IMG/VR virus record: IMGVR_UViG_3300007754_000006
Origin: an uncultured virus (IMG/VR IMGVR_UViG_3300007754_000006)
Taxonomy: Duplodnaviria; Heunggongvirae; Uroviricota; Caudoviricetes
DNA: 20,000 nucleotides
Reading direction: 5' to 3' (one strand)
Positions 3,028 to 19,360 of the stretch are shown here, one piece after another. Position numbers and translations under genes: made by a program. The notes beneath the pieces are model-generated. The model was not told the origin of the DNA and searched no databases. It saw only the letters and a list, made by a program, of their open reading frames with translations. Every line of letters starts with the position of its first letter. Position 1 is the first letter of the stretch.

Positions 3028-3050
3028 GGCACCTCCTGCAGGACTCGAAC
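3028..3050 (-). pseudogene. Orphan tRNA 3' fragment (T-loop plus 3' acceptor strand)
   Basis: Minus strand GTTCGAGT-CCTGC-AGGAGGT-G-CC. AGGAGGT pairs with GCCTCCT of the orphan 5' half at 3885-3891. Confidence 0.6.
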
Positions 3051-3095
3051 ACAGCCCTGGCAGGAGGCGAGCCTGCGCTCTATGAAGGAGAGGAA

Positions 3096-3173
3096 TGGCG
3101 CCTCGACCAGGACTCGAACCTGGGACCGACAGCTTAGAAGGCTGGTGTTCTAATCCAACTGAACTACCGAGGC
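3096..3173 (-). tRNA. tRNA-Arg(UCU)
   Basis: GCCTCGG TA GTTC AGTTGGATTA GAAC A CCAGC CT TCT AA GCTGT CGGTC CCAGG TTCGAGT CCTGG TCGAGGC G CCA: full cloverleaf with encoded CCA and one mismatch at the top of the anticodon stem. Confidence 0.93.
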
Positions 3174-3186
3174 ACAAAGAGGTCTC

Positions 3187-3819
3187 TCAGACAAGAGATT
3201 TTACTCTCGAGACTGTTTCCTCACTGAACGCCTTTGGGTAGTGTACTTCCAAAACCGTCCACCCTCCCTCAATCAGGAGGAGGTGACGGTTCCGATAGTA
3301 CCGCTTCAAGCGTCCAGGCTGAGTGTTGTTCGGCACCACTTCGTAGTGCTGGTTACCGTTCACCTCAATCGCGACCTTCTTGCTTGGGAAGGCAATGTCG
3401 AGAGAGAAGAACCGGTCTTTGAACGGCATGTACTCTTCCTCAAAGGTGAGCCCTTCTTCCCGGAGCCGCCTTTTGAGGTGCTCGCAGGGCACACTCACGA
3501 ACTTGTCTTTTCTTCGCCACGGGTGTTTGTCCGGGTTCTCCCGCAACCATCGAAGACGGGCGGCTGAGACCTTGTCCCGACTTTCCTGTGTCCAAACCCG
3601 GTTCCTGTTGGCTTCGGCAAGGACTTTCTTGACACTGTCCGGACACTCTGTGAGAGTTCCTGCTGTGTAGCCGTTGCGGAAGTTCTTCTTCGCGGCTCTC
3701 GCCGCCCTCAAGTTCTCGACGTACACCGAACGCTTGGGGTTTTCCGAGCACCACCGGACATGGCTTGAGAACGCCCGAGAGCGAACTCCCGGATCTTTCC
3801 TGCAATGTGGACAGAGCAT
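3187..3819 (-). CDS. Putative free-standing homing endonuclease (Zn-finger and NUMOD3-like N-terminus, Vsr/DUF559-like PD-(D/E)XK domain)
   Basis: ATG 3819 after GGAGG; CPHC...HVRWC; WTQESRDKVSAA (NUMOD3-like); FSLDIAFPSKKVAIEVNGNQHY...RHLLLIEGGWTVLEV. Confidence 0.8.
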   Translation of the reverse strand: MLCPHCRKDPGVRSRAFSSHVRWCSENPKRSVYVENLRAARAAKKNFRNGYTAGTLTECPDSVKKVLAEANRNRVWTQESRDKVSAARLRWLRENPDKHPWRRKDKFVSVPCEHLKRRLREEGLTFEEEYMPFKDRFFSLDIAFPSKKVAIEVNGNQHYEVVPNNTQPGRLKRYYRNRHLLLIEGGWTVLEVHYPKAFSEETVSRVKSLV

Positions 3820-3856
3820 TGGGCCTCCGTACCCGCAGCGAGGCATAGGGTATCTA

Positions 3857-3891
3857 AAGGCCGTTGCTCTATCCAACTGAGCTAAGGAGGC
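3857..3891 (-). pseudogene. 5' half of an argU-like tRNA-Arg, broken in the anticodon loop
   Basis: GCCTCCT TA GCTC AGTTGGATA GAGC A ACGGC CT T, with no 3' anticodon strand (GCCGT) or T-arm following. Confidence 0.8.
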
Positions 3892-12476: not shown

Positions 12477-12956
12477 TTACCGCGAGCAGAGGACCCTACC
12501 GGACCGAACAGTCTGCGTCCTCGAGGGCTCGATGGCCTGGGCCAGCTGGATGCCGCTCTCGCCCGCGCCGTCGCCGACGAAGATCATGAGAGCGTCCTCG
12601 CCCTCCTGGCGCCTCTCCCACTTCTTCGGACGAGCCTTGGGTAGCCCTACCAGAGGAGGAACCAGATGGCCGTCCTCGTTCCTCTCACGGTCCTCTACGC
12701 GAACGAGGTAGCCCCGCTCGAACACCACGACCACGTTGATCAGGAAATCACAGGAATCGCAGCAGTAGACGCCAAGGTCCTTGAGATACGGGGCGGGGGG
12801 AAGTCCTGGGGCCAGAGAGCCCAAAGGGATCCTCCGGGCCTCGGGTGTGTAGTTCCCGATGAAGAACTTGAACTGGACCTCCGCTCCGTCAGGGGGATGC
12901 GCTGCCCCGCACTCTGGGCAGTCCATCTTCACGTAGGTGGAATCTACCAAACCCAT
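12477..12956 (-). CDS. Zinc-ribbon hypothetical protein
   Basis: CPEC and CDSC pairs; GGAG RBS. Confidence 0.75.
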   Translation of the reverse strand: MGLVDSTYVKMDCPECGAAHPPDGAEVQFKFFIGNYTPEARRIPLGSLAPGLPPAPYLKDLGVYCCDSCDFLINVVVVFERGYLVRVEDRERNEDGHLVPPLVGLPKARPKKWERRQEGEDALMIFVGDGAGESGIQLAQAIEPSRTQTVRSGRVLCSR

Positions 12957-12977
12957 GTCTATCTCCCAACGAAACAG

Positions 12978-13040
12978 GCCGCTCTACAACGGTCCCGTCT
13001 CCTAATGCTCGATTCTTGGAGACGGGACCGTTGGAGCGGC
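12978..13040. repeat. Long inverted repeat (16-bp perfect stem plus 7 bp)
   Basis: CAACGGTCCCGTCTCC (12987-13002) pairs with GGAGACGGGACCGTTG (13018-13033), flanked by GCCGCTC/GAGCGGC. Confidence 0.9.
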
Positions 13041-13051
13041 TTGTGAGAGGG

Positions 13052-13193
13052 TTCCACAACCGGGCGAGTTGGTCAGCGAGGTTACGGCTTGCGCCGGCAC
13101 TCGGATTTGAACCGAGGACATTCCGCTTACGAGGCAGATGATCTATCCAACTGATCTATGCTTGTAGGCTGTACCAGGGGCTCGGTTGTGGAA
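13052..13193 (-). ncRNA. tRNA-Thr(CGU)-like core (13092-13165) with a broken acceptor stem, enclosed by the conserved module
   Basis: Intact D arm (GATC/GATC), anticodon arm TCTGC CT CGT AA GCGGA and T arm CTCGG TTCAAAT CCGAG. Acceptor ACAAGCA/TGCCGGC has 3 mismatches and no CCA. Ends pair TTCCACAACCGAGC/GCCCGGTTGTGGAA. Confidence 0.8.
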
Positions 13194-13198
13194 AATCG

Positions 13199-13429
13199 TC
13201 AGGCTTCGATGACCCAGGGATTCCCGGAGCTTCCTGCTCCGACGGACTCGACCTGGTAGACACCGTTGACATCCCGCGCCTGGTAGTGGGCCTTGCGGAA
13301 CGTGATCCAGAGCCACGCACGCTTCAGCCAGTGGAGCTCTTCCCACCGTTGGCCGCGCACCTCGATCTTGTCGCCGGCCTGGAGGGAAGTTCCGTCTACG
13401 GTATCGGGGATGTCTTCGGAGATGATCAT
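13199..13429 (-). CDS. Hypothetical protein
   Basis: ATG at 13429 after AAGG; 76 aa. Confidence 0.6.
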   Translation of the reverse strand: MIISEDIPDTVDGTSLQAGDKIEVRGQRWEELHWLKRAWLWITFRKAHYQARDVNGVYQVESVGAGSSGNPWVIEA

Positions 13430-13502
13430 TTGACCTTTGGGGTTCCGATTCCCGTTACCGGGTTCACATCTCAATAGCTACGGATTCCGTGGAAGGAAAG
13501 GT

Positions 13503-14222
13503 CTACCTTCTGGTAATGATCGCCACCAAAGCCCCTACAGGGAAGGCCAAAGTGAACAGGATATGTATGTGGAACGCGGCTACCGCAGTGACGGTAGCTA
13601 AGACTCCGATTGCCCCCCAAGACTTGTGATCGGAACCCAGGGTACTGAGGAAGGACAGCTCCAGGAGGTTCGAGTGGGTCATTACAGCACCCGCCGCTCC
13701 CATGAACACGTACAGGGGGAACTCTGACCGAGGACCCTTGTTGCTTCTGCTGAGGCTCTTCGTGATTAGGGTTGCGTCGACCAGAATGAGGGGAATCGTC
13801 ACCAGAACTCCCAGAGAGGCCACCGGGGGGAGGAGAGTCACCGTAGGGACCGCGACCCCCAAGATGAAGAGCTTCCCCCACTCCCCATTCAGAGCCATAA
13901 AGAGAGCCTCTTTTGCCATGGCCAAGGCCATACTTGCCAGGACAGGGATTGAGACCCCTGTGATCAGGACAGCGGCTCCCGGGGGGATGAACATGAATAT
14001 GAAGAAGACAGGAGTGAGGAAAACCAGAGCCACGCCTACGATGAGAACGTGGTGTACTTCTACTTCGTGGTTCTCTACCGCCATGAGCAGACCTACTGCG
14101 GTCGCCCCCATCCACCACAAGGACCCAAGGAACATGAAGATTCCCAGAGACCAGAAGGGGAACTCCAGAGGGGAGAACTCAACCCAAGCTCGCGCGAGAG
14201 CAATCAGGAGTTCCATTCCCAC
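13503..14222 (-). CDS. Polytopic membrane protein
   Basis: Many hydrophobic segments; GGAGG RBS. Confidence 0.75.
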   Translation of the reverse strand: MGMELLIALARAWVEFSPLEFPFWSLGIFMFLGSLWWMGATAVGLLMAVENHEVEVHHVLIVGVALVFLTPVFFIFMFIPPGAAVLITGVSIPVLASMALAMAKEALFMALNGEWGKLFILGVAVPTVTLLPPVASLGVLVTIPLILVDATLITKSLSRSNKGPRSEFPLYVFMGAAGAVMTHSNLLELSFLSTLGSDHKSWGAIGVLATVTAVAAFHIHILFTLAFPVGALVAIITRR

Positions 14223-14244
14223 CTCCGCTGCCTGTTACCTCTCC

Positions 14245-14279
14245 GAAAACGACGAAGCCCCGCTCGGAGGCGGGGCTTC
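14245..14279 (-). terminator. Probable intrinsic terminator of the RNA cluster
   Basis: GAAGCCCCGC CTCCGA GCGGGGCTTC (10-bp stem) followed by GTCGTTTTC, 8 nt after the last CCA. Confidence 0.7.
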
Positions 14280-14287
14280 AAAGTAGA

Positions 14288-14432
14288 TGGCGGGGAAGAG
14301 AGGAGTCGAACCTCTAAGCATGTAGGCTGGTGTCGGGGGCTGGCCTGGACAGGCCAGCGAGGGACTCAGCGAGAAGAGACTTTCGTCCCGGATTAATAGT
14401 CCGGTGGCAGATCCACACTGCCATTCTTCCCC
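14288..14432 (-). ncRNA. 145-nt tRNA-like RNA, anticodon ATT, 6-bp D stem, 72-nt variable region
   Basis: GGGGAAG/CTTCCCC-G-CCA; TGGCAG/CTGCCA; CCGGA CT ATT AA TCCGG; AGAGG TTCGACT CCTCT; insert at 14316-14387. Confidence 0.88.
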
Positions 14433-14520
14433 AGGGGGCGCTCGTCTCTCCGAGCCGTCACGTCTTTTGCTCTCCTTGAAGTGGGAGCAGGGAAGTACGA
14501 CGTTCCCCGGCCAGCCCCCT
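14433..14520 (-). ncRNA. manA-motif-like structured RNA
   Basis: Closing stem AGGGGGC/GCCCCCT, GCCGG, ACGTC/GACGT pseudoknot, CCACTT and GTGACGGCTCGGAGAGACGAGC. The manA resemblance is from memory, not from a covariance-model search. Confidence 0.55.
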
Positions 14521-14685
14521 AATCCACGCTACTGAGTTCGTGGGTAGTCGGGTGGGGCTTCACCTTGAGGGTCCGCTTCTCCGGCGAAACGCGCGGAGCG
14601 GGACAAGAGGACTCAGCCTCTCTTATCTCCCGAAGGAGACGTAGGGTTTGGACGTGCGAGTGGGGGAGCGAGAAACAACGCCTGT

Positions 14686-14761
14686 TGGCGCAAAAAACGG
14701 GAATCGAACCCGCGACATTTTGGGTGTGAACCAAATGCTCTTCCAACTGAGCTATTTTCGC
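14686..14761 (-). tRNA. tRNA-Val(CAC), flanked by the conserved module (full unit 14648-14795)
   Basis: GCGAAAA TA GCTC AGTTGGAA GAGC A TTTGG TT CAC AC CCAAA ATGTC GCGGG TTCGATT CCCGT TTTTTGC G CCA; 76 nt. Confidence 0.88.
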
Positions 14762-14957
14762 AGTGCTTGTAGGCTCCGTCCGGAGGCGCGTCCAAGAAGA
14801 AGGAGAGCACAGGGTTCGATACCTGCTGTTTGCTCACACCCCGAAGGGTGGACCCCCATCGCGCCGAGGGTGGGCACTCTCCATAGTCCCACCAGGTGCT
14901 CCGTGGCGGGTTCAACCATTGAGGAACGAACCGGCTGGAGCTACCTGGGGGATTATA

Positions 14958-15105
14958 TGGTGGGGAAGGAAGGACTCGAACCTTCAAGCGTGTAGGCTGA
15001 TGCCGGAGCTACCTGGGTTGATTCAGATAGCGAGTGGCGCAGCGAGAAGAGTCTTGCGACCCGGTTCCCAAAACCGGTGGCGGATCCATACCGCCATTCT
15101 TCCCC
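14958..15105 (-). ncRNA. 148-nt tRNA-like RNA, anticodon TGG (Pro), 6-bp D stem, 75-nt variable region
   Basis: GGGGAAG/CTTCCCC-A-CCA; TGGCGG/CCGCCA; CCGGT TT TGG GA ACCGG; GAAGG TTCGAGT CCTTC; insert at 14986-15060. Confidence 0.88.
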
Positions 15106-15184
15106 AAAGTGTTTTGAAAGAGCGTCGGGGCGTTTCCCGACTGACAAGAACTAATACCGGTTCTCGTCTGGAAAACCCCTCTTT

Positions 15185-15418
15185 TCAAGAAAGAGCGGCT
15201 TGGACGTAGCTGATGACGTCCCCAACTGTGAACAGGTTCTCGGCGTCCTCGTCCGAGATCTGGATCTTGAACTCGGTCTCGAGATTGATCGCCAGGTCAA
15301 CTCGGTCCAGGCTGTCCGCTCCAAGATCATCCACGAGATCCGCCCCTGGGGCTGCCTCCTCGGGGGCGACTCGGAGCAGGTGGGTGATCAGCTCTACGAC
15401 GCGGGACTCAATCTTCAC
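15185..15418 (-). CDS. acpP: Acyl carrier protein
   Basis: GTG at 15418 after GAGGGG; DDLGADSLD phosphopantetheine site, LETEFKIQISDEDAE, TVGDVISYV. Confidence 0.93.
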   Translation of the reverse strand: MKIESRVVELITHLLRVAPEEAAPGADLVDDLGADSLDRVDLAINLETEFKIQISDEDAENLFTVGDVISYVQAALS

Positions 15419-18847: not shown

Positions 18848-19174
18848 ATGAGTCTCAAGACGATCCTGGCCAGCGAAGGAATCTCCAAGGAATCCTATCG
18901 ACGCCGCTCCTACGTGAATCTCGGCGAGGTGGAGACCCCTCGGGCGGGCCTTCTCGCGGATGTCGAGATCGAGGGATTCATCTTTGAAGCGGGTCGGGAC
19001 AGTGAGTTCGACATCACCACCATCGACTTCGTGGACGAGGCGGAGAACCAGCGCTCGATGAGGGAGCGTGAGTTCCTGCGCTTCACAGGTCTCCGTGAGG
19101 CGCAGATCATGGAGATGATCTGGGACGAGTTCCAGGCGCAGAATGAGGCCCGCTACGAGGACATGTACCGGTAG
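18848..19174 (+). CDS. Hypothetical acidic protein with MSLKTILASEG leader
   Basis: GGAG RBS; N-terminus shared with the 7163 gene. Confidence 0.8.
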   Translation: MSLKTILASEGISKESYRRRSYVNLGEVETPRAGLLADVEIEGFIFEAGRDSEFDITTIDFVDEAENQRSMREREFLRFTGLREAQIMEMIWDEFQAQNEARYEDMYR

Positions 19175-19273
19175 CGGGACTATTCCCCGTAGACCGGTAG
19201 CGGGACTATTCCCCGTAGACCGGTAGCGGGACTATTCCCCGTAGACCGGTAGCGGGACTATTCCCCGTAGACC
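19167..19273 (+). repeat. Tandem repeat, 26 bp x 4 (plus 3 nt)
   Basis: ACCGGTAGCGGGACTATTCCCCGTAG at 19167, 19193, 19219 and 19245, with no spacers. Confidence 0.97.
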
Positions 19274-19276
19274 TGC

Positions 19277-19360
19277 ACCGAGGTTCTCATGTCCCGCTCC
19301 ATCCTATCCTCCCAAGACCGAGGTTCTCATGTCCCGCTCCATCCTATCCTCCCAAGACCG
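19277..19360 (+). repeat. Tandem duplication, 40 bp x 2 (plus 4 nt), of the RBS, ATG and first codons
   Basis: ACCGAGGTTCTCATGTCCCGCTCCATCCTATCCTCCCAAG at 19277 and 19317. Confidence 0.97.

What the first reader, a model, noticed from the sequence alone, without database searches (positions are those of the whole stretch)
14648..14795. tRNA-Val(CAC) clamped by leader-trailer pairing, with a hairpin that can bury its CCA
Seen: leader TTGGACGCGC pairs with trailer GCACGTCCAA (mismatch at the third pair from the internal loop, as in the Thr unit), and GGAGC pairs with GCTCC. The acceptor stem is weak (GCGAAAA/TTTTTGC), the discriminator is G rather than the Val-typical A73, and GCGCC-AACA-GGCGT can fold over the CCA. 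Inference: a switchable or intermediate form between a processable tRNA and the closed Thr-type RNA.
Basis: partly seen in the sequence, partly recalled or inferred. Interest (0 to 1): 0.72.

Follow-up and report, generated by a model that had tools for sequence, protein, structure and literature searches.

The report
Conserved RNA cassette framing phage tRNAs
The paired flanks around this phage valine tRNA are real and belong to a conserved folded RNA cassette that, in related large marine phages, either frames a tRNA or interrupts it like an intron, by a mechanism that is still unknown.

Summary
tRNA-Val(CAC) lies on the minus strand (14761..14686). Its leader (14795..14786) pairs with its trailer (14657..14648), GAGC pairs with GCTC, and a hairpin covers G71-C75.

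These flanks are not private to Val. They are the two halves of a conserved cassette: Pa hairpin, CUC, P2 (4 bp), P2.1 (3 bp), ACUC loop, Pb helix, P2', then invariant CUACAAGC.

In 28 aligned cases from uncultured phage contigs, and two further CM hits in G002, the cassette is contiguous. It sits inside a tRNA gene, mostly in the variable region and once in the anticodon loop of a tRNA-Gly. Two of these 28 flank Val in this window.

In six cases, including Val and the neighbouring Thr unit, it is circularly permuted. Pb is then built from leader and trailer, and the tRNA closes the other end.

Covariation supports every helix in both forms. Rfam has no matching family. None of 10 pattern hits in cellular genomes is real.

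Best reading (about 0.5): a phage-specific excision or processing cassette that is intron-like when inserted and an end-processing clamp around Val. No cleavage, ligation or catalyst was shown.

The parts
14786..14795 (-). Val unit: leader strand of helix Pb (TTGGACGCGC)
14777..14785 (-). Val unit: joining strand J (CTCCGGACG). Its positions -5..-3 pair with x2-x4 of the trailer (P2.1); here 2 of 3 pair.
14773..14776 (-). Val unit: P2 3' strand (GAGC)
14765..14772 (-). Val unit: invariant single-stranded motif CTACAAGC, followed by a 3-nt spacer ACT (14764..14762)
14686..14761 (-). tRNA-Val(CAC), 76 nt, with G3:U70, G73 and encoded CCA
14678..14691 (-). Val unit: Pa hairpin GCGCC-AACA-GGCGT, which pairs G71-C75 (overlaps the tRNA 3' end)
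   Evidence: equivalent hairpins
14658..14677 (-). Val unit: linker TGTTT, CTC, P2 5' strand GCTC (14669..14666), x = CCCCA, CTC
14648..14657 (-). Val unit: trailer strand of helix Pb (GCACGTCCAA)
14958..15105 (-). Interrupted tRNA (anticodon loop UUUGGGA, Pro UGG). Pa is 15060..15051, hairpin core 15043..14996, CTACACGC 14995..14988 and the T arm/acceptor/CCA 14985..14958. The cassette lies between the anticodon and T arms.
   Evidence: (CM 53.3 bits in G001 copy)
14288..14432 (-). Interrupted tRNA (anticodon loop CUAUUAA, 'AUU'). Pa is 14387..14378, core 14370..14326, CTACATGC 14325..14318 and the 3' part 14315..14288.
   Evidence: (64.4 bits)
13054..13191 (-). Thr(CGU) 'stub' unit. Leader Pb strand is 13191..13180, CAGC+CTACAAGC 13171..13160, body with 3-bp acceptor stub 13159..13097, Pa 13096..13085, CTC-GCTG-ACCAA-CTC 13080..13066 and trailer Pb strand 13065..13054.
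   Evidence: (z = -4.21, 0 of 200 shuffles)

Best explanation
tRNA-Val(CAC) is a genuine tRNA gene of a large, uncultured, tRNA-rich bacteriophage. It is embedded in a conserved, phage-specific structured RNA cassette.

Anatomy of the cassette:
- A small hairpin, Pa.
- A C/U-rich linker ending mostly in CUC.
- A long irregular hairpin: P2 (4 bp), a 1x2 loop, P2.1 (3 bp), an internal loop whose 5' strand is an almost invariant ACUC, then Pb of variable sequence and length.
- An invariant single-stranded CUACA(A)GC right after P2'.

Two topologies:
- Usually the cassette is contiguous and lies inside a tRNA gene. It sits between the anticodon and T arms, 5' of the long variable arm of class II tRNAs, or once inside the anticodon loop of a tRNA-Gly.
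- Around Val, Thr and four other units it is circularly permuted. Pb is open and made from leader and trailer, and the tRNA closes the other end.

Proposed mechanism:
- The cassette is a cis-acting excision and processing signal. The transcript is cut on both sides of it.
- The 3' cut falls about 0-4 nt after CUACAAGC. In all four full-acceptor units this place is exactly the tRNA 5' end.
- The other cut falls on the 5' side of the cassette, near Pa.
- Inserted cassettes are thereby removed and the tRNA halves re-joined, as for an intron.
- Around Val the same cuts release the tRNA from a long transcript. RNase P and 3' trimming would then finish the ends.
- Until the cut, Pa holds G71-C75 (including CCA) in a hairpin and competes with the weak A-U/G.U acceptor stem.

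Shown versus inferred:
- Shown: the structure, its conservation, its topologies, and that one insertion site is incompatible with decoding.
- Inferred: that cutting and joining happen at all, and where.
- Catalyst unknown. I lean towards a protein endonuclease plus an RNA ligase (about 60:40) over self-cleavage.
For: 1. The motif AGCCTACANGCW occurs 4 times on the minus strand within 2 kb. The four units share the same ordered motifs.
2. Twenty-eight distinct contiguous cassettes were aligned in A1. 91.2% of 364 cells pair, against 75.3% in shuffles (0 of 500). Slid controls give 31-55%. Eleven of 13 pairs change on both sides. P2 variants are GC/AU, CG/UA and UA/AU; P2.1 variants are GC/CG/UA (read directly).
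3. The same helices hold when they are made from leader and trailer: six units, 89.2% paired, 0 of 500 shuffles. The G002 homologue of the Val unit differs from it by two compensatory Pb pairs and keeps the A.C mismatch.
4. A covariance model of the cassette finds 14 strong hits (E <= 4.4e-10) in four viral records. All lie on the strand of the tRNA genes. I read the flanks of 13 and found tRNA parts on both sides. The remaining one, in G003, was read only through its identical copy in L046.
5. In G002 the cassette lies in the anticodon loop of a tRNA-Gly. ARAGORN calls it Gly(ccc) with a 76-nt intron. Its acceptor GCGGGAA../..TTCCCGC-T-CCA and the loop end CCAA match the phage's other Gly tRNAs. 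It must be removed for decoding.
6. Removing the hairpin core in silico turns 24 of 27 interrupted genes into ARAGORN-detectable tRNAs with 7-bp acceptor stems. With the cassette in place ARAGORN misses or miscalls them.
7. The spacer from CUACAAGC to tRNA position 1 is 3, 3, 3 and 4 nt in the four full-acceptor units. The inferred exon 2 starts 0-3 nt after the motif in the Gly, Leu and Phe-like genes.
8. G.U pairs in the helices fit RNA of the tRNA strand.
9. The element is phage-restricted. Zero of 10 pattern hits in 185,579 species genomes have tRNA flanks. This compares with 4 of 4 in viral contigs and 14 of 37 in metagenome contigs.
Against: - No RNA data. No listed sequencing run is on record as RNA, so neither cleavage nor joining has been seen.
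- The 5' boundary is not at a fixed distance from the cassette: 14-24 nt in the six genes where it can be inferred. A simple 'measure from the hairpin' enzyme therefore does not explain both cuts.
- In the commonest form (long D stem, only 1-3 nt between CUACAAGC and the T stem), removing Pa plus the hairpin would leave almost no variable loop. Either Pa stays as a variable arm or these RNAs are not spliced as I propose.
- Three of four full-acceptor units have the anticodon arm capped by a 4-nt loop, or possibly so. The 'stub' units have no free acceptor end. Processing into a decoding tRNA cannot be their purpose.
- Most cassette-bearing tRNAs duplicate anticodons that the same phage also has as ordinary tRNAs.
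- No splicing endonuclease, RNase III, Rnl1 or Rnl2 family was found in the four incomplete viral records. The RtcB match covers only 45 N-terminal positions.
Confidence: 0.5

Rival explanations
1. The cassette, alone or together with the tRNA-like body, is itself the working RNA. It would be a stable protein-binding or decoy RNA. The tRNA part would serve as a scaffold or processing handle, as in bacterial Y RNA (YrlA) or herpesvirus tRNA-miRNA chimeras. Around Val, RNase P and 3' processing would then leave a two-piece cassette held together by Pb, P2.1 and P2.
For: - The single-stranded CUACAAGC and ACUC are invariant or nearly so across 28 + 6 units. This is more conservation than a cut site usually needs.
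- The full-acceptor units in G002 and L050, and possibly L071, have the anticodon arm turned into a capped hairpin. They keep canonical D and T arms.
- Stub units without a free acceptor end are conserved in three records.
- Cassette-bearing tRNAs are mostly redundant with ordinary ones in the same phage.
Against: - The cassette interrupts the anticodon loop of an otherwise canonical tRNA-Gly(NCC), and the variable region of canonical Leu and Phe-like tRNAs. This makes sense only if it is removed.
- No Y RNA or other Rfam family matches, even at E <= 5.
- Sequences complementary to CUACAAGC are not enriched on the transcribed strand. There are 2 in G001 and 1 in 50 kb of G002, against about 0.8 expected.
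- This reading does not exclude excision. It may be true in addition to it.
Confidence: 0.25
2. This is an ordinary leader-trailer processing stem. The roughly 17-19 bp irregular duplex around tRNA-Val would simply be a host RNase III site, as around rRNAs in bacterial operons and in phage T7 early RNAs. It would separate the tRNA from neighbouring mRNAs.
For: - The duplex of Pb (10 bp) + P2.1 + P2 with internal loops resembles RNase III substrates. This resemblance is recalled from memory and was not tested.
- tRNAs in this phage are interspersed with genes on the same strand.
Against: - RNase III needs no invariant single-stranded CUACAAGC or ACUC.
- The same element lies inside tRNA genes, where a double-strand cut would split the tRNA.
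- The other 18 ARAGORN tRNAs of G001 have no such stem.
Confidence: 0.1
3. The element acts at the DNA level. It would be a small mobile insertion, or a recombination or replacement scar linked to the homing endonucleases of the tRNA region. The pairing of the flanks would be an inverted repeat of DNA with no role in RNA.
For: - GIY-YIG or HNH endonuclease genes lie next to several units.
- The cassette sits at several different sites in tRNA genes.
- tRNA fragments occur elsewhere in the window.
- Earlier notes of this scan describe tRNA genes nested in broken tRNA genes with palindromic stems.
Against: - Helices are kept by compensatory changes while their sequences diverge completely.
- They contain G.U pairs, which are mismatches on the other strand.
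- No tRNA halves flank the Val or Thr units.
- Units in distant contigs keep the same RNA architecture.
Confidence: 0.07
4. The flanks pair by chance and have no function.
For: For the single Val sequence the fold is not better than shuffles at the usual level: z = -1.83, with 7 of 200 shuffles as good.
Against: Six of six split units and 28 of 28 contiguous cassettes keep the helices with covariation.
Confidence: 0.02

Closest known systems
Archaeal bulge-helix-bulge (BHB) elements: tRNA introns at canonical and non-canonical sites, leader-trailer BHB stems around rRNAs, and permuted tRNA genes processed through circular intermediates (reviews PMC4090602 and PMC3978253, seen as search listings and abstracts only; details recalled)
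   Same: One structural signal is used both inside tRNAs at several positions and between leader and trailer. The element works independently of its position. The central helix is 4 bp (P2).
   Different: - There are no two 3-nt bulges flanking the 4-bp helix. One side has a 1x2 loop and the other has long single strands.
- The 3' boundary inferred from the tRNA-Gly lies 2-3 nt after CUACAAGC, not in a bulge next to P2.
- The host is bacterial by tRNA-Tyr type.
- No EndA family was found in four viral records.
Group I introns in bacterial and phage tRNA genes
   Same: An intervening sequence in the anticodon loop of a tRNA. The same phage lineage has a 255-nt insert of that kind of size in tRNA-Arg(TCG).
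   Different: The cassette core is only 56-69 nt. It matches no Rfam intron family. It occurs mostly outside the anticodon loop and also in a split form around whole tRNAs.
'Enigmatic' introns in tRNAs of Lak megaphages (Devoto et al., bioRxiv 10.1101/356790; passages read)
   Same: Huge phages with many tRNAs, some interrupted by conserved inserts of unknown type that Rfam does not classify.
   Different: - Those are low-GC gut phages of Prevotella.
- No structure, shared cassette or leader/trailer form is described in the passages I read.
- I did not compare sequences, because the preprint's supplementary table was not available to me.
RNase III leader-trailer stems of rRNA operons and phage T7 processing sites (recalled)
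   Same: Pairing of 5' and 3' flanks around a stable RNA, with a duplex interrupted by internal loops.
   Different: This element has invariant single-stranded motifs. The same element also occurs within tRNAs, and it is restricted to a phage group.
Bacterial Y RNA / YrlA (tRNA-like domain closed by a stem of the 5' and 3' ends; recalled)
   Same: The Thr-type 'stub' units look like this. They have D, anticodon and T arms, no free acceptor end, and the RNA ends paired in a long stem with conserved loops.
   Different: No Rfam match. No Ro/Rsr gene was looked for. The same cassette also interrupts ordinary tRNAs.

Membership tests
tRNA (Rfam RF00005) | Cloverleaf with conserved D and T loop residues, scored by the covariance model | tested here: met
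   68.7 bits against a gathering score of 29, over positions 1-71 of 71. ARAGORN calls Val(cac).
Archaeal-type BHB intron / processing stem | Two 3-nt bulges on opposite strands separated by a 4-bp helix | tested here: not met
   P2 is 4 bp. Its flanks are a 1x2 internal loop on one side and a CUC linker plus the 8-nt CUACAAGC on the other.
Archaeal-type BHB intron / processing stem | Splicing endonuclease (EndA, PF01974) available in host or virus | tested here: not met
   Zero of 4 viral records match; these records are incomplete. The tRNA-Tyr genes are 84-87 nt (class II), which is the bacterial type (the rule itself is recalled). The host genome is unknown.
Group I intron | Conserved P3-P9 catalytic core, length of about 200 nt or more, match to Rfam intron models | tested here: not met
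   The cassette is 56-69 nt. No intron family matches at gathering score or at E <= 5.
Known small self-cleaving ribozymes (hammerhead, twister, twister-sister, pistol, hatchet, HDV) | Match to the family covariance model | tested here: not met
   The cmscan of 12800-15300 at E <= 5 lists none of them. Permuted or very divergent forms could be missed.
RNase III processing stem | Cleavage by RNase III in a duplex of about two helical turns | not testable with these tools
   The duplex length of about 17-19 bp with loops is compatible. Cleavage cannot be tested here.
Y RNA / YrlA | Ro-binding helix and match to the Rfam model | tested here: not met
   No such match. The Ro (TROVE) gene was not searched.
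Circularly permuted tRNA gene | The 3' half is encoded upstream of the 5' half | tested here: not met
   Val reads 5' to 3' in normal order. It is the cassette that is permuted, not the tRNA.

The most novel reading that the evidence does not exclude
This may be a new RNA excision system of bacterial viruses. A self-contained cassette of about 60 nt, possibly a ribozyme, removes itself from tRNAs at arbitrary positions. In its permuted form it seals or circularises tRNAs and tRNA-like RNAs. The cassette-bearing genes would be a second, latent, nuclease-proof tRNA set. They would become active only when an RNA repair ligase such as RtcB joins the cut ends, for example during a host anticodon-nuclease defence.
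Probability: 0.2. Interest if true: 0.95.

Novelty: new variant of a known kind. Interest (0 to 1): 0.8.

Why it matters
In bacteria and their phages, the only established tRNA introns are self-splicing group I introns in the anticodon loop. Structure-defined introns at many positions, and leader-trailer versions of the same signal, are regarded as archaeal and eukaryotic.

Here a short, well-defined RNA structure with strong covariation shows that behaviour in phages whose tRNA-Tyr genes are of the bacterial type. It matches no described RNA family.

If it is excised, there must be an unknown endonuclease and ligase pathway, or a new ribozyme, acting on phage tRNAs. The 'enigmatic' tRNA introns reported for huge phages would then become experimentally tractable with a defined 60-nt substrate.

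It also matters for annotation. Standard tRNA finders miss or miscall these genes, so the tRNA repertoires of huge phages are undercounted.

Tried and rejected
- RNA evidence. The look-up of sequencing runs listed no RNA holder: six DNA rows hold the stretch and one transcriptome row holds next to none of its words.
- Split-form pattern in viral contigs: 5 loci, none with a tRNA.
- First contiguous pattern: 1 locus, which is real.
- Cellular genomes: 10 loci, none real.
- Intron-less orthologue of the interrupted tRNA-Gly: 3 loci, all a coding region.
- Literature:
  - The motif strings gave only primer-like hits.
  - Searches for phage tRNA introns gave only the Lak megaphage preprint as relevant.
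  - I found no description of this cassette, but subscription journals are not covered.
- BHB, hammerhead and group I readings were checked by eye and by Rfam, and rejected.
- Trans-target idea: there is no excess of sites complementary to CUACAAGC or CACUCGC.
- Conserved neighbour gene:
  - The ORFs next to the window's units have no Pfam or PHROG family.
  - They have no counterpart beside units elsewhere. The only tblastn hit is a 37-aa stretch in L092.
  - The 239-aa ORF 13506-14222 looks like a multi-pass membrane protein from its sequence.
- Candidate enzymes in G001-G004:
  - RtcB matches only 45 N-terminal positions, in G002.
  - Rnl2, EndA and RNase III are not found.
  - Rnl1 is not found either, but that control rang nowhere.
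  - A CCA-adding-type nucleotidyltransferase is present in G002.
- The promoter and terminator scan was not different from shuffles.
- ARAGORN on in-silico spliced genes accepts many boundaries, so it does not fix the splice sites.
- Nearest phages: blastn against 50,697 phage records hit only tRNA bodies. The virus has no close isolate.
Full report
**What is at the coordinates**

The finding sits on the minus strand. ARAGORN finds three tRNAs in the window, all on the minus strand: Arg(tct) 3096-3173, Thr(cgt) 13091-13165 and Val(cac) 14686-14761. Rfam's tRNA model scores them 62.6, 46.1 and 68.7 bits.

- The leader TTGGACGCGC (14795..14786) pairs with the trailer GCACGTCCAA (14657..14648), with one C.A mismatch at the third pair from the inside.
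- GGAGC (14777..14773) pairs with GCTCC (14669..14665).
- The acceptor stem GCGAAAA/TTTTTGC is A-U rich and has G3:U70. The discriminator is G, and CCA is encoded.
- GCGCC-AACA-GGCGT (14691..14678) can pair G71-C75.

The minimum-energy fold of 14798..14645 contains the clamp, the GGAGC/GCTCC helix and the CCA-covering hairpin, but not the acceptor stem. It is only weakly better than shuffles: z = -1.83, with 7 of 200 as good. The Thr unit folds far better than shuffles: z = -4.21, with 0 of 200.

**The surroundings**

The window is viral. A 56.5-kb IMG/VR record (G001, estimated 31% complete) shares all of the window's sampled 31-letter words, although my script did not find the window as one exact stretch in it.

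Recognisable genes are:
- adenylate kinase, HNH endonucleases, ThiF and OMP decarboxylase;
- an acyl carrier protein, deoxynucleoside kinase and dCMP deaminase.

G001 carries 20 ARAGORN tRNAs, all on one strand. A related 288-kb record (G002, 79% complete) has at least 39 tRNAs in about 23 kb.

The tRNA-Tyr genes of these records are 84-87 nt, which means they have a long variable arm. By textbook knowledge this is the bacterial type, so I treat the host as a bacterium. No close isolate exists: blastn against 50,697 phage records hit only tRNA bodies.

**The flanks are a shared cassette**

The 12-mer AGCCTACAAGCA upstream of Val recurs upstream of Thr. With two mismatches it also occurs at 14328 and 14998.

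Laying the four units side by side showed that the two extra copies lie inside tRNA genes that ARAGORN had missed.
- The gene at 15105..14958 has anticodon loop UUUGGGA.
- The gene at 14432..14288 has anticodon loop CUAUUAA.
- Each has an intact 7-bp acceptor stem GGGGAAG/CTTCCCC and CCA.
- Each is interrupted between the anticodon stem and the T stem by about 75 nt.

The insert reads, in order:
1. a small hairpin, Pa (GTC-GCAA-GAC or GAC-GAAA-GTC);
2. a linker ending in CTC;
3. GCTG;
4. five nucleotides, then CTC;
5. a hairpin, Pb;
6. eight or nine nucleotides;
7. CAGC;
8. CTACANGC.

In Val and Thr the same motifs are present, but split. CAGC/GAGC plus CTACAAGC lie in the leader. Pa, CTC, GCTG/GCTC, N5 and CTC lie in the trailer. 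The leader-trailer helix takes the place of hairpin Pb.

The 'clamp' is therefore helix Pb of a circularly permuted cassette. The 'CCA-burying hairpin' is Pa.

**How widespread it is**

Pattern scans gave these results.
- Viral contigs: 4 of 4 loci real.
- Metagenome contigs: 14 of 37 loci real. The other 23 have no tRNA features.
- One genome for each of 185,579 prokaryote species: 0 of 10 loci real.

Reading the fetched loci and records G001-G004 gave 28 distinct contiguous cassettes and six complete split ones.

A covariance model built from the 28 finds 14 hits with E <= 4.4e-10 in G001-G004, all on the tRNA strand. I read the flanks of 13 and found tRNA parts on both sides. The G003 hit was read only through its identical copy in L046.

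**Structure and covariation**

On the MAFFT alignment of the 28 cassettes, the proposed helices P2, P2.1 and the first six pairs of Pb gave:

| Measure | Result |
|---|---|
| Cells paired | 91.2% of 364 |
| Paired in shuffles | 75.3% (0 of 500 reach the observed value) |
| Paired with partners slid by 1-3 columns | 31-55% |
| Pairs with changes on both sides | 11 of 13 |

P2 occurs as GCUG/CAGC, ACUG/CAGU, GCUA/UAGC, GCAG/CUGC, GUUG/CAAC and GCUC/GAGC. P2.1 occurs as GCC/GGC, GUC/GAC, UCC/GGA, CCC/GGG, CGC/GCG and GAC/GUC. Eight of the 28 have a C.A at the third P2.1 pair, or else a register slipped by one.

For the six split units, the same pairs plus ten Pb pairs gave:

| Measure | Result |
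|---|---|
| Cells paired | 89.2% of 102 |
| Paired in shuffles | 74.4% (0 of 500) |
| Paired with partners slid | 31-41% |
| Pairs with changes on both sides | 11 of 17 |

The Thr row is out of register by one column in Pb, which lowers these numbers.

The G002 unit at about 246,070-245,900 is the closest relative of the Val unit. Its Pb is CTGAACGCGC/GCACGTTCAG, which differs by two compensatory pair changes and keeps the same A.C mismatch.

G.U pairs occur in P2 and Pb. This fits RNA of the tRNA strand rather than a DNA repeat.

Invariant or nearly invariant nucleotides are the CUC before Pb, CUACA-GC after P2', and, less strictly, the CUC before P2.

**Where the cassette sits**

*Form 1: between the anticodon and T arms.* This is the commonest form. 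It is usually found in a family of paralogous tRNAs with near-identical acceptor stems (GGGGAAG in 15 of 30 parsed), unusually long D stems and many different anticodons. After the core is removed in silico, ARAGORN calls Pro, Gln, Asn, Gly, Phe, Tyr, Lys, Glu, Met, Ile and Arg.

*Form 2: 5' of the natural long variable arm of class II tRNAs.* Examples are Leu(CAA) in G002 and a second case in G004.

*Form 3: inside the anticodon loop of a tRNA-Gly in G002.*
- ARAGORN itself calls this gene Gly(ccc) with a 76-nt intron.
- The acceptor stem, U73, CCA and the loop end CCAA match the two ordinary Gly tRNAs of that phage.
- In this position the insert is incompatible with decoding.

*Form 4: split around a complete tRNA or tRNA-like body with full acceptor stem and CCA or CC.* Examples are Val here, and units in G002, L050 and L071.
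- CUACAAGC is followed by 3, 3, 3 or 4 nt and then position 1 of the tRNA.
- Pa always overlaps nucleotides 69-75 of the acceptor 3' end (71-75 in Val).

*Form 5: split around a body whose acceptor stem is only a 3-bp stub.* Examples are Thr here, and units in L071 and G002.
- The stub is made with the GC of CUACAAGC and covaries: GCA/UGC against GCG/CGC.
- It is continued coaxially by Pa, so the RNA has no free acceptor end.

**What it most likely does**

A structure that keeps its own architecture while its point of attachment changes behaves like a self-contained signal. The attachment points seen are the variable region, the anticodon loop and the acceptor ends.

The anticodon-loop case shows that the cassette has to come out at least there. 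Removing the core in silico restores a detectable tRNA in 24 of 27 genes.

Comparison with ordinary Leu, Phe and Gly tRNAs of the same phages places the start of the downstream exon 0-3 nt after CUACAAGC. This is the same place as the tRNA 5' end in the four full-acceptor split units.

My preferred reading (about 0.5) has these parts.
- The cassette marks the RNA for cutting on both sides.
- Inserted copies are excised and the halves re-joined.
- Around Val the same cuts free the tRNA from a polycistronic transcript.
- Pa keeps the CCA end and the top of the weak acceptor stem occupied until then.

What is shown is the anatomy, its conservation and the need for removal in one case. Cutting, joining, the enzymes and the order of events are inferred.

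**Difficulties for this reading**

I do not hide the following points.
- The upstream boundary is 14-24 nt from P2 in the six genes where it can be inferred, so it is not measured from the hairpin.
- In the long-D-stem family only 1-3 nt separate CUACAAGC from the T stem. Pa would then have to remain as a variable arm.
- Three of the four full-acceptor units have capped, or possibly capped, anticodon arms. The stub units cannot be charged.
- Most cassette-bearing tRNAs duplicate ordinary ones.

These points feed the main rival (0.25): that the cassette, with or without its tRNA-like body, is itself a working RNA. That rival is compatible with excision.

**Lesser rivals**

- A plain RNase III stem (0.1) does not explain the invariant single strands or the internal copies.
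- A DNA-level scar or mobile insert (0.07) does not explain the compensatory changes and G.U pairs.
- Chance (0.02) is excluded by the comparisons.

**Comparison with what is known**

- The logic is closest to the archaeal BHB system. That system uses one signal for introns at many positions and for leader-trailer stems. The defining two 3-nt bulges are absent here, the host looks bacterial, and no EndA was found.
- The cassette is far too small for a group I intron, and no Rfam family matches at E <= 5.
- The only literature I found on non-classified phage tRNA introns is the Lak megaphage preprint (10.1101/356790). The passages read call them enigmatic and give no structure. Its supplementary table was not available to me.
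That is an analogous idea in another system, and I did not test it.

**Verdict**

It is a new, well-supported RNA structure of huge phages that frames or interrupts tRNAs.

I rate it a new variant of a known kind, namely tRNA intervening and processing signals. There is a real chance (about 0.2) that it is a categorically new excision system.

Noticed in passing
window 14686-14761 (-); also L012:10567-10627, L088:13348-13411, L058:546-605, L065:398-459: tRNA-Val(CAC) has a G3:U70 pair and G73. G3:U70 is the main alanine identity mark in bacteria (recalled). The same G3:U70 occurs in 4 of the 30 parsed cassette-bearing tRNAs, with Gln- and Lys-type anticodons (a fifth 'GT' row there is a mis-parse). 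Possible Ala charging was not examined.
   Followed up: partly
window 14288-14432 (-): This interrupted tRNA has anticodon loop CUAUUAA. ARAGORN calls it Asn(att) after the core is removed. An A34 anticodon of this kind is very unusual in bacteria.
   Followed up: no
window 14802-14882 (-): Between the Pro-like gene and the Val leader lies an 81-nt tRNA-like element. GGAGAGT...GCTCTCC could form a 7-bp acceptor stem, there is a T-arm-like CAGG-TATCGAAC-CCTG, and a CACCC-TTCG-GGGTG hairpin. No tool calls it. Seen by eye only.
   Followed up: no
window 3028-3062 and 3850-3891 (-): A tRNA 5' part (GCCTCCT acceptor, normal D arm, loop CTTTAGA) and a matching 3' acceptor/T-arm fragment lie about 800 nt apart. 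Between them are an HNH-like ORF (3190-3876) and the complete tRNA-Arg(TCT). G001 differs from the window by about 343 bp between this region and the Thr unit. This may be a tRNA gene disrupted by an endonuclease insertion.
   Followed up: partly
window 19141-19296 and 19277-19356 (+): Tandem repeats: about five copies of a 26-nt unit (ACCGGTAGCGGGACTATTCCCCGTAG), followed by two perfect copies of a 40-nt unit.
   Followed up: no
G001:41034-41381 (-), outside the window: tRNA-Arg(TCG) carries a 255-nt insert in the anticodon loop, which is the size of a group I intron. It was not scanned with Rfam.
   Followed up: no
L089:1779-1843 and L091:7450-7511 regions (-): Two cassette-bearing tRNAs in different phages (G002, G004) share an 8-nt loop AAGGAAAA in place of a normal anticodon loop. 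ARAGORN reports a 4-base anticodon 'ggaa'.
   Followed up: no
L050:50-205 (+), L092:7890-8050 (-), L071:798-950 (-): These full-acceptor split units have the anticodon arm as a long hairpin capped by 4 nt (GCAA, UCUC, possibly CCCA). They keep canonical D and T arms and CCA or CC. They are tRNA-like RNAs that cannot decode.
   Followed up: partly
L046, L049, L088:11171-11815: GIY-YIG (SegE-like) homing endonuclease genes lie directly downstream of, or among, cassette-bearing tRNA genes.
   Followed up: no
L089:4738-5352 (-) and G002:82170-82616 (-): G002 encodes a PTH2-type peptidyl-tRNA hydrolase, which is the archaeal/eukaryotic type (recalled). It also encodes a CCA-adding-type nucleotidyltransferase inside a 927-aa frame.
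   Followed up: no
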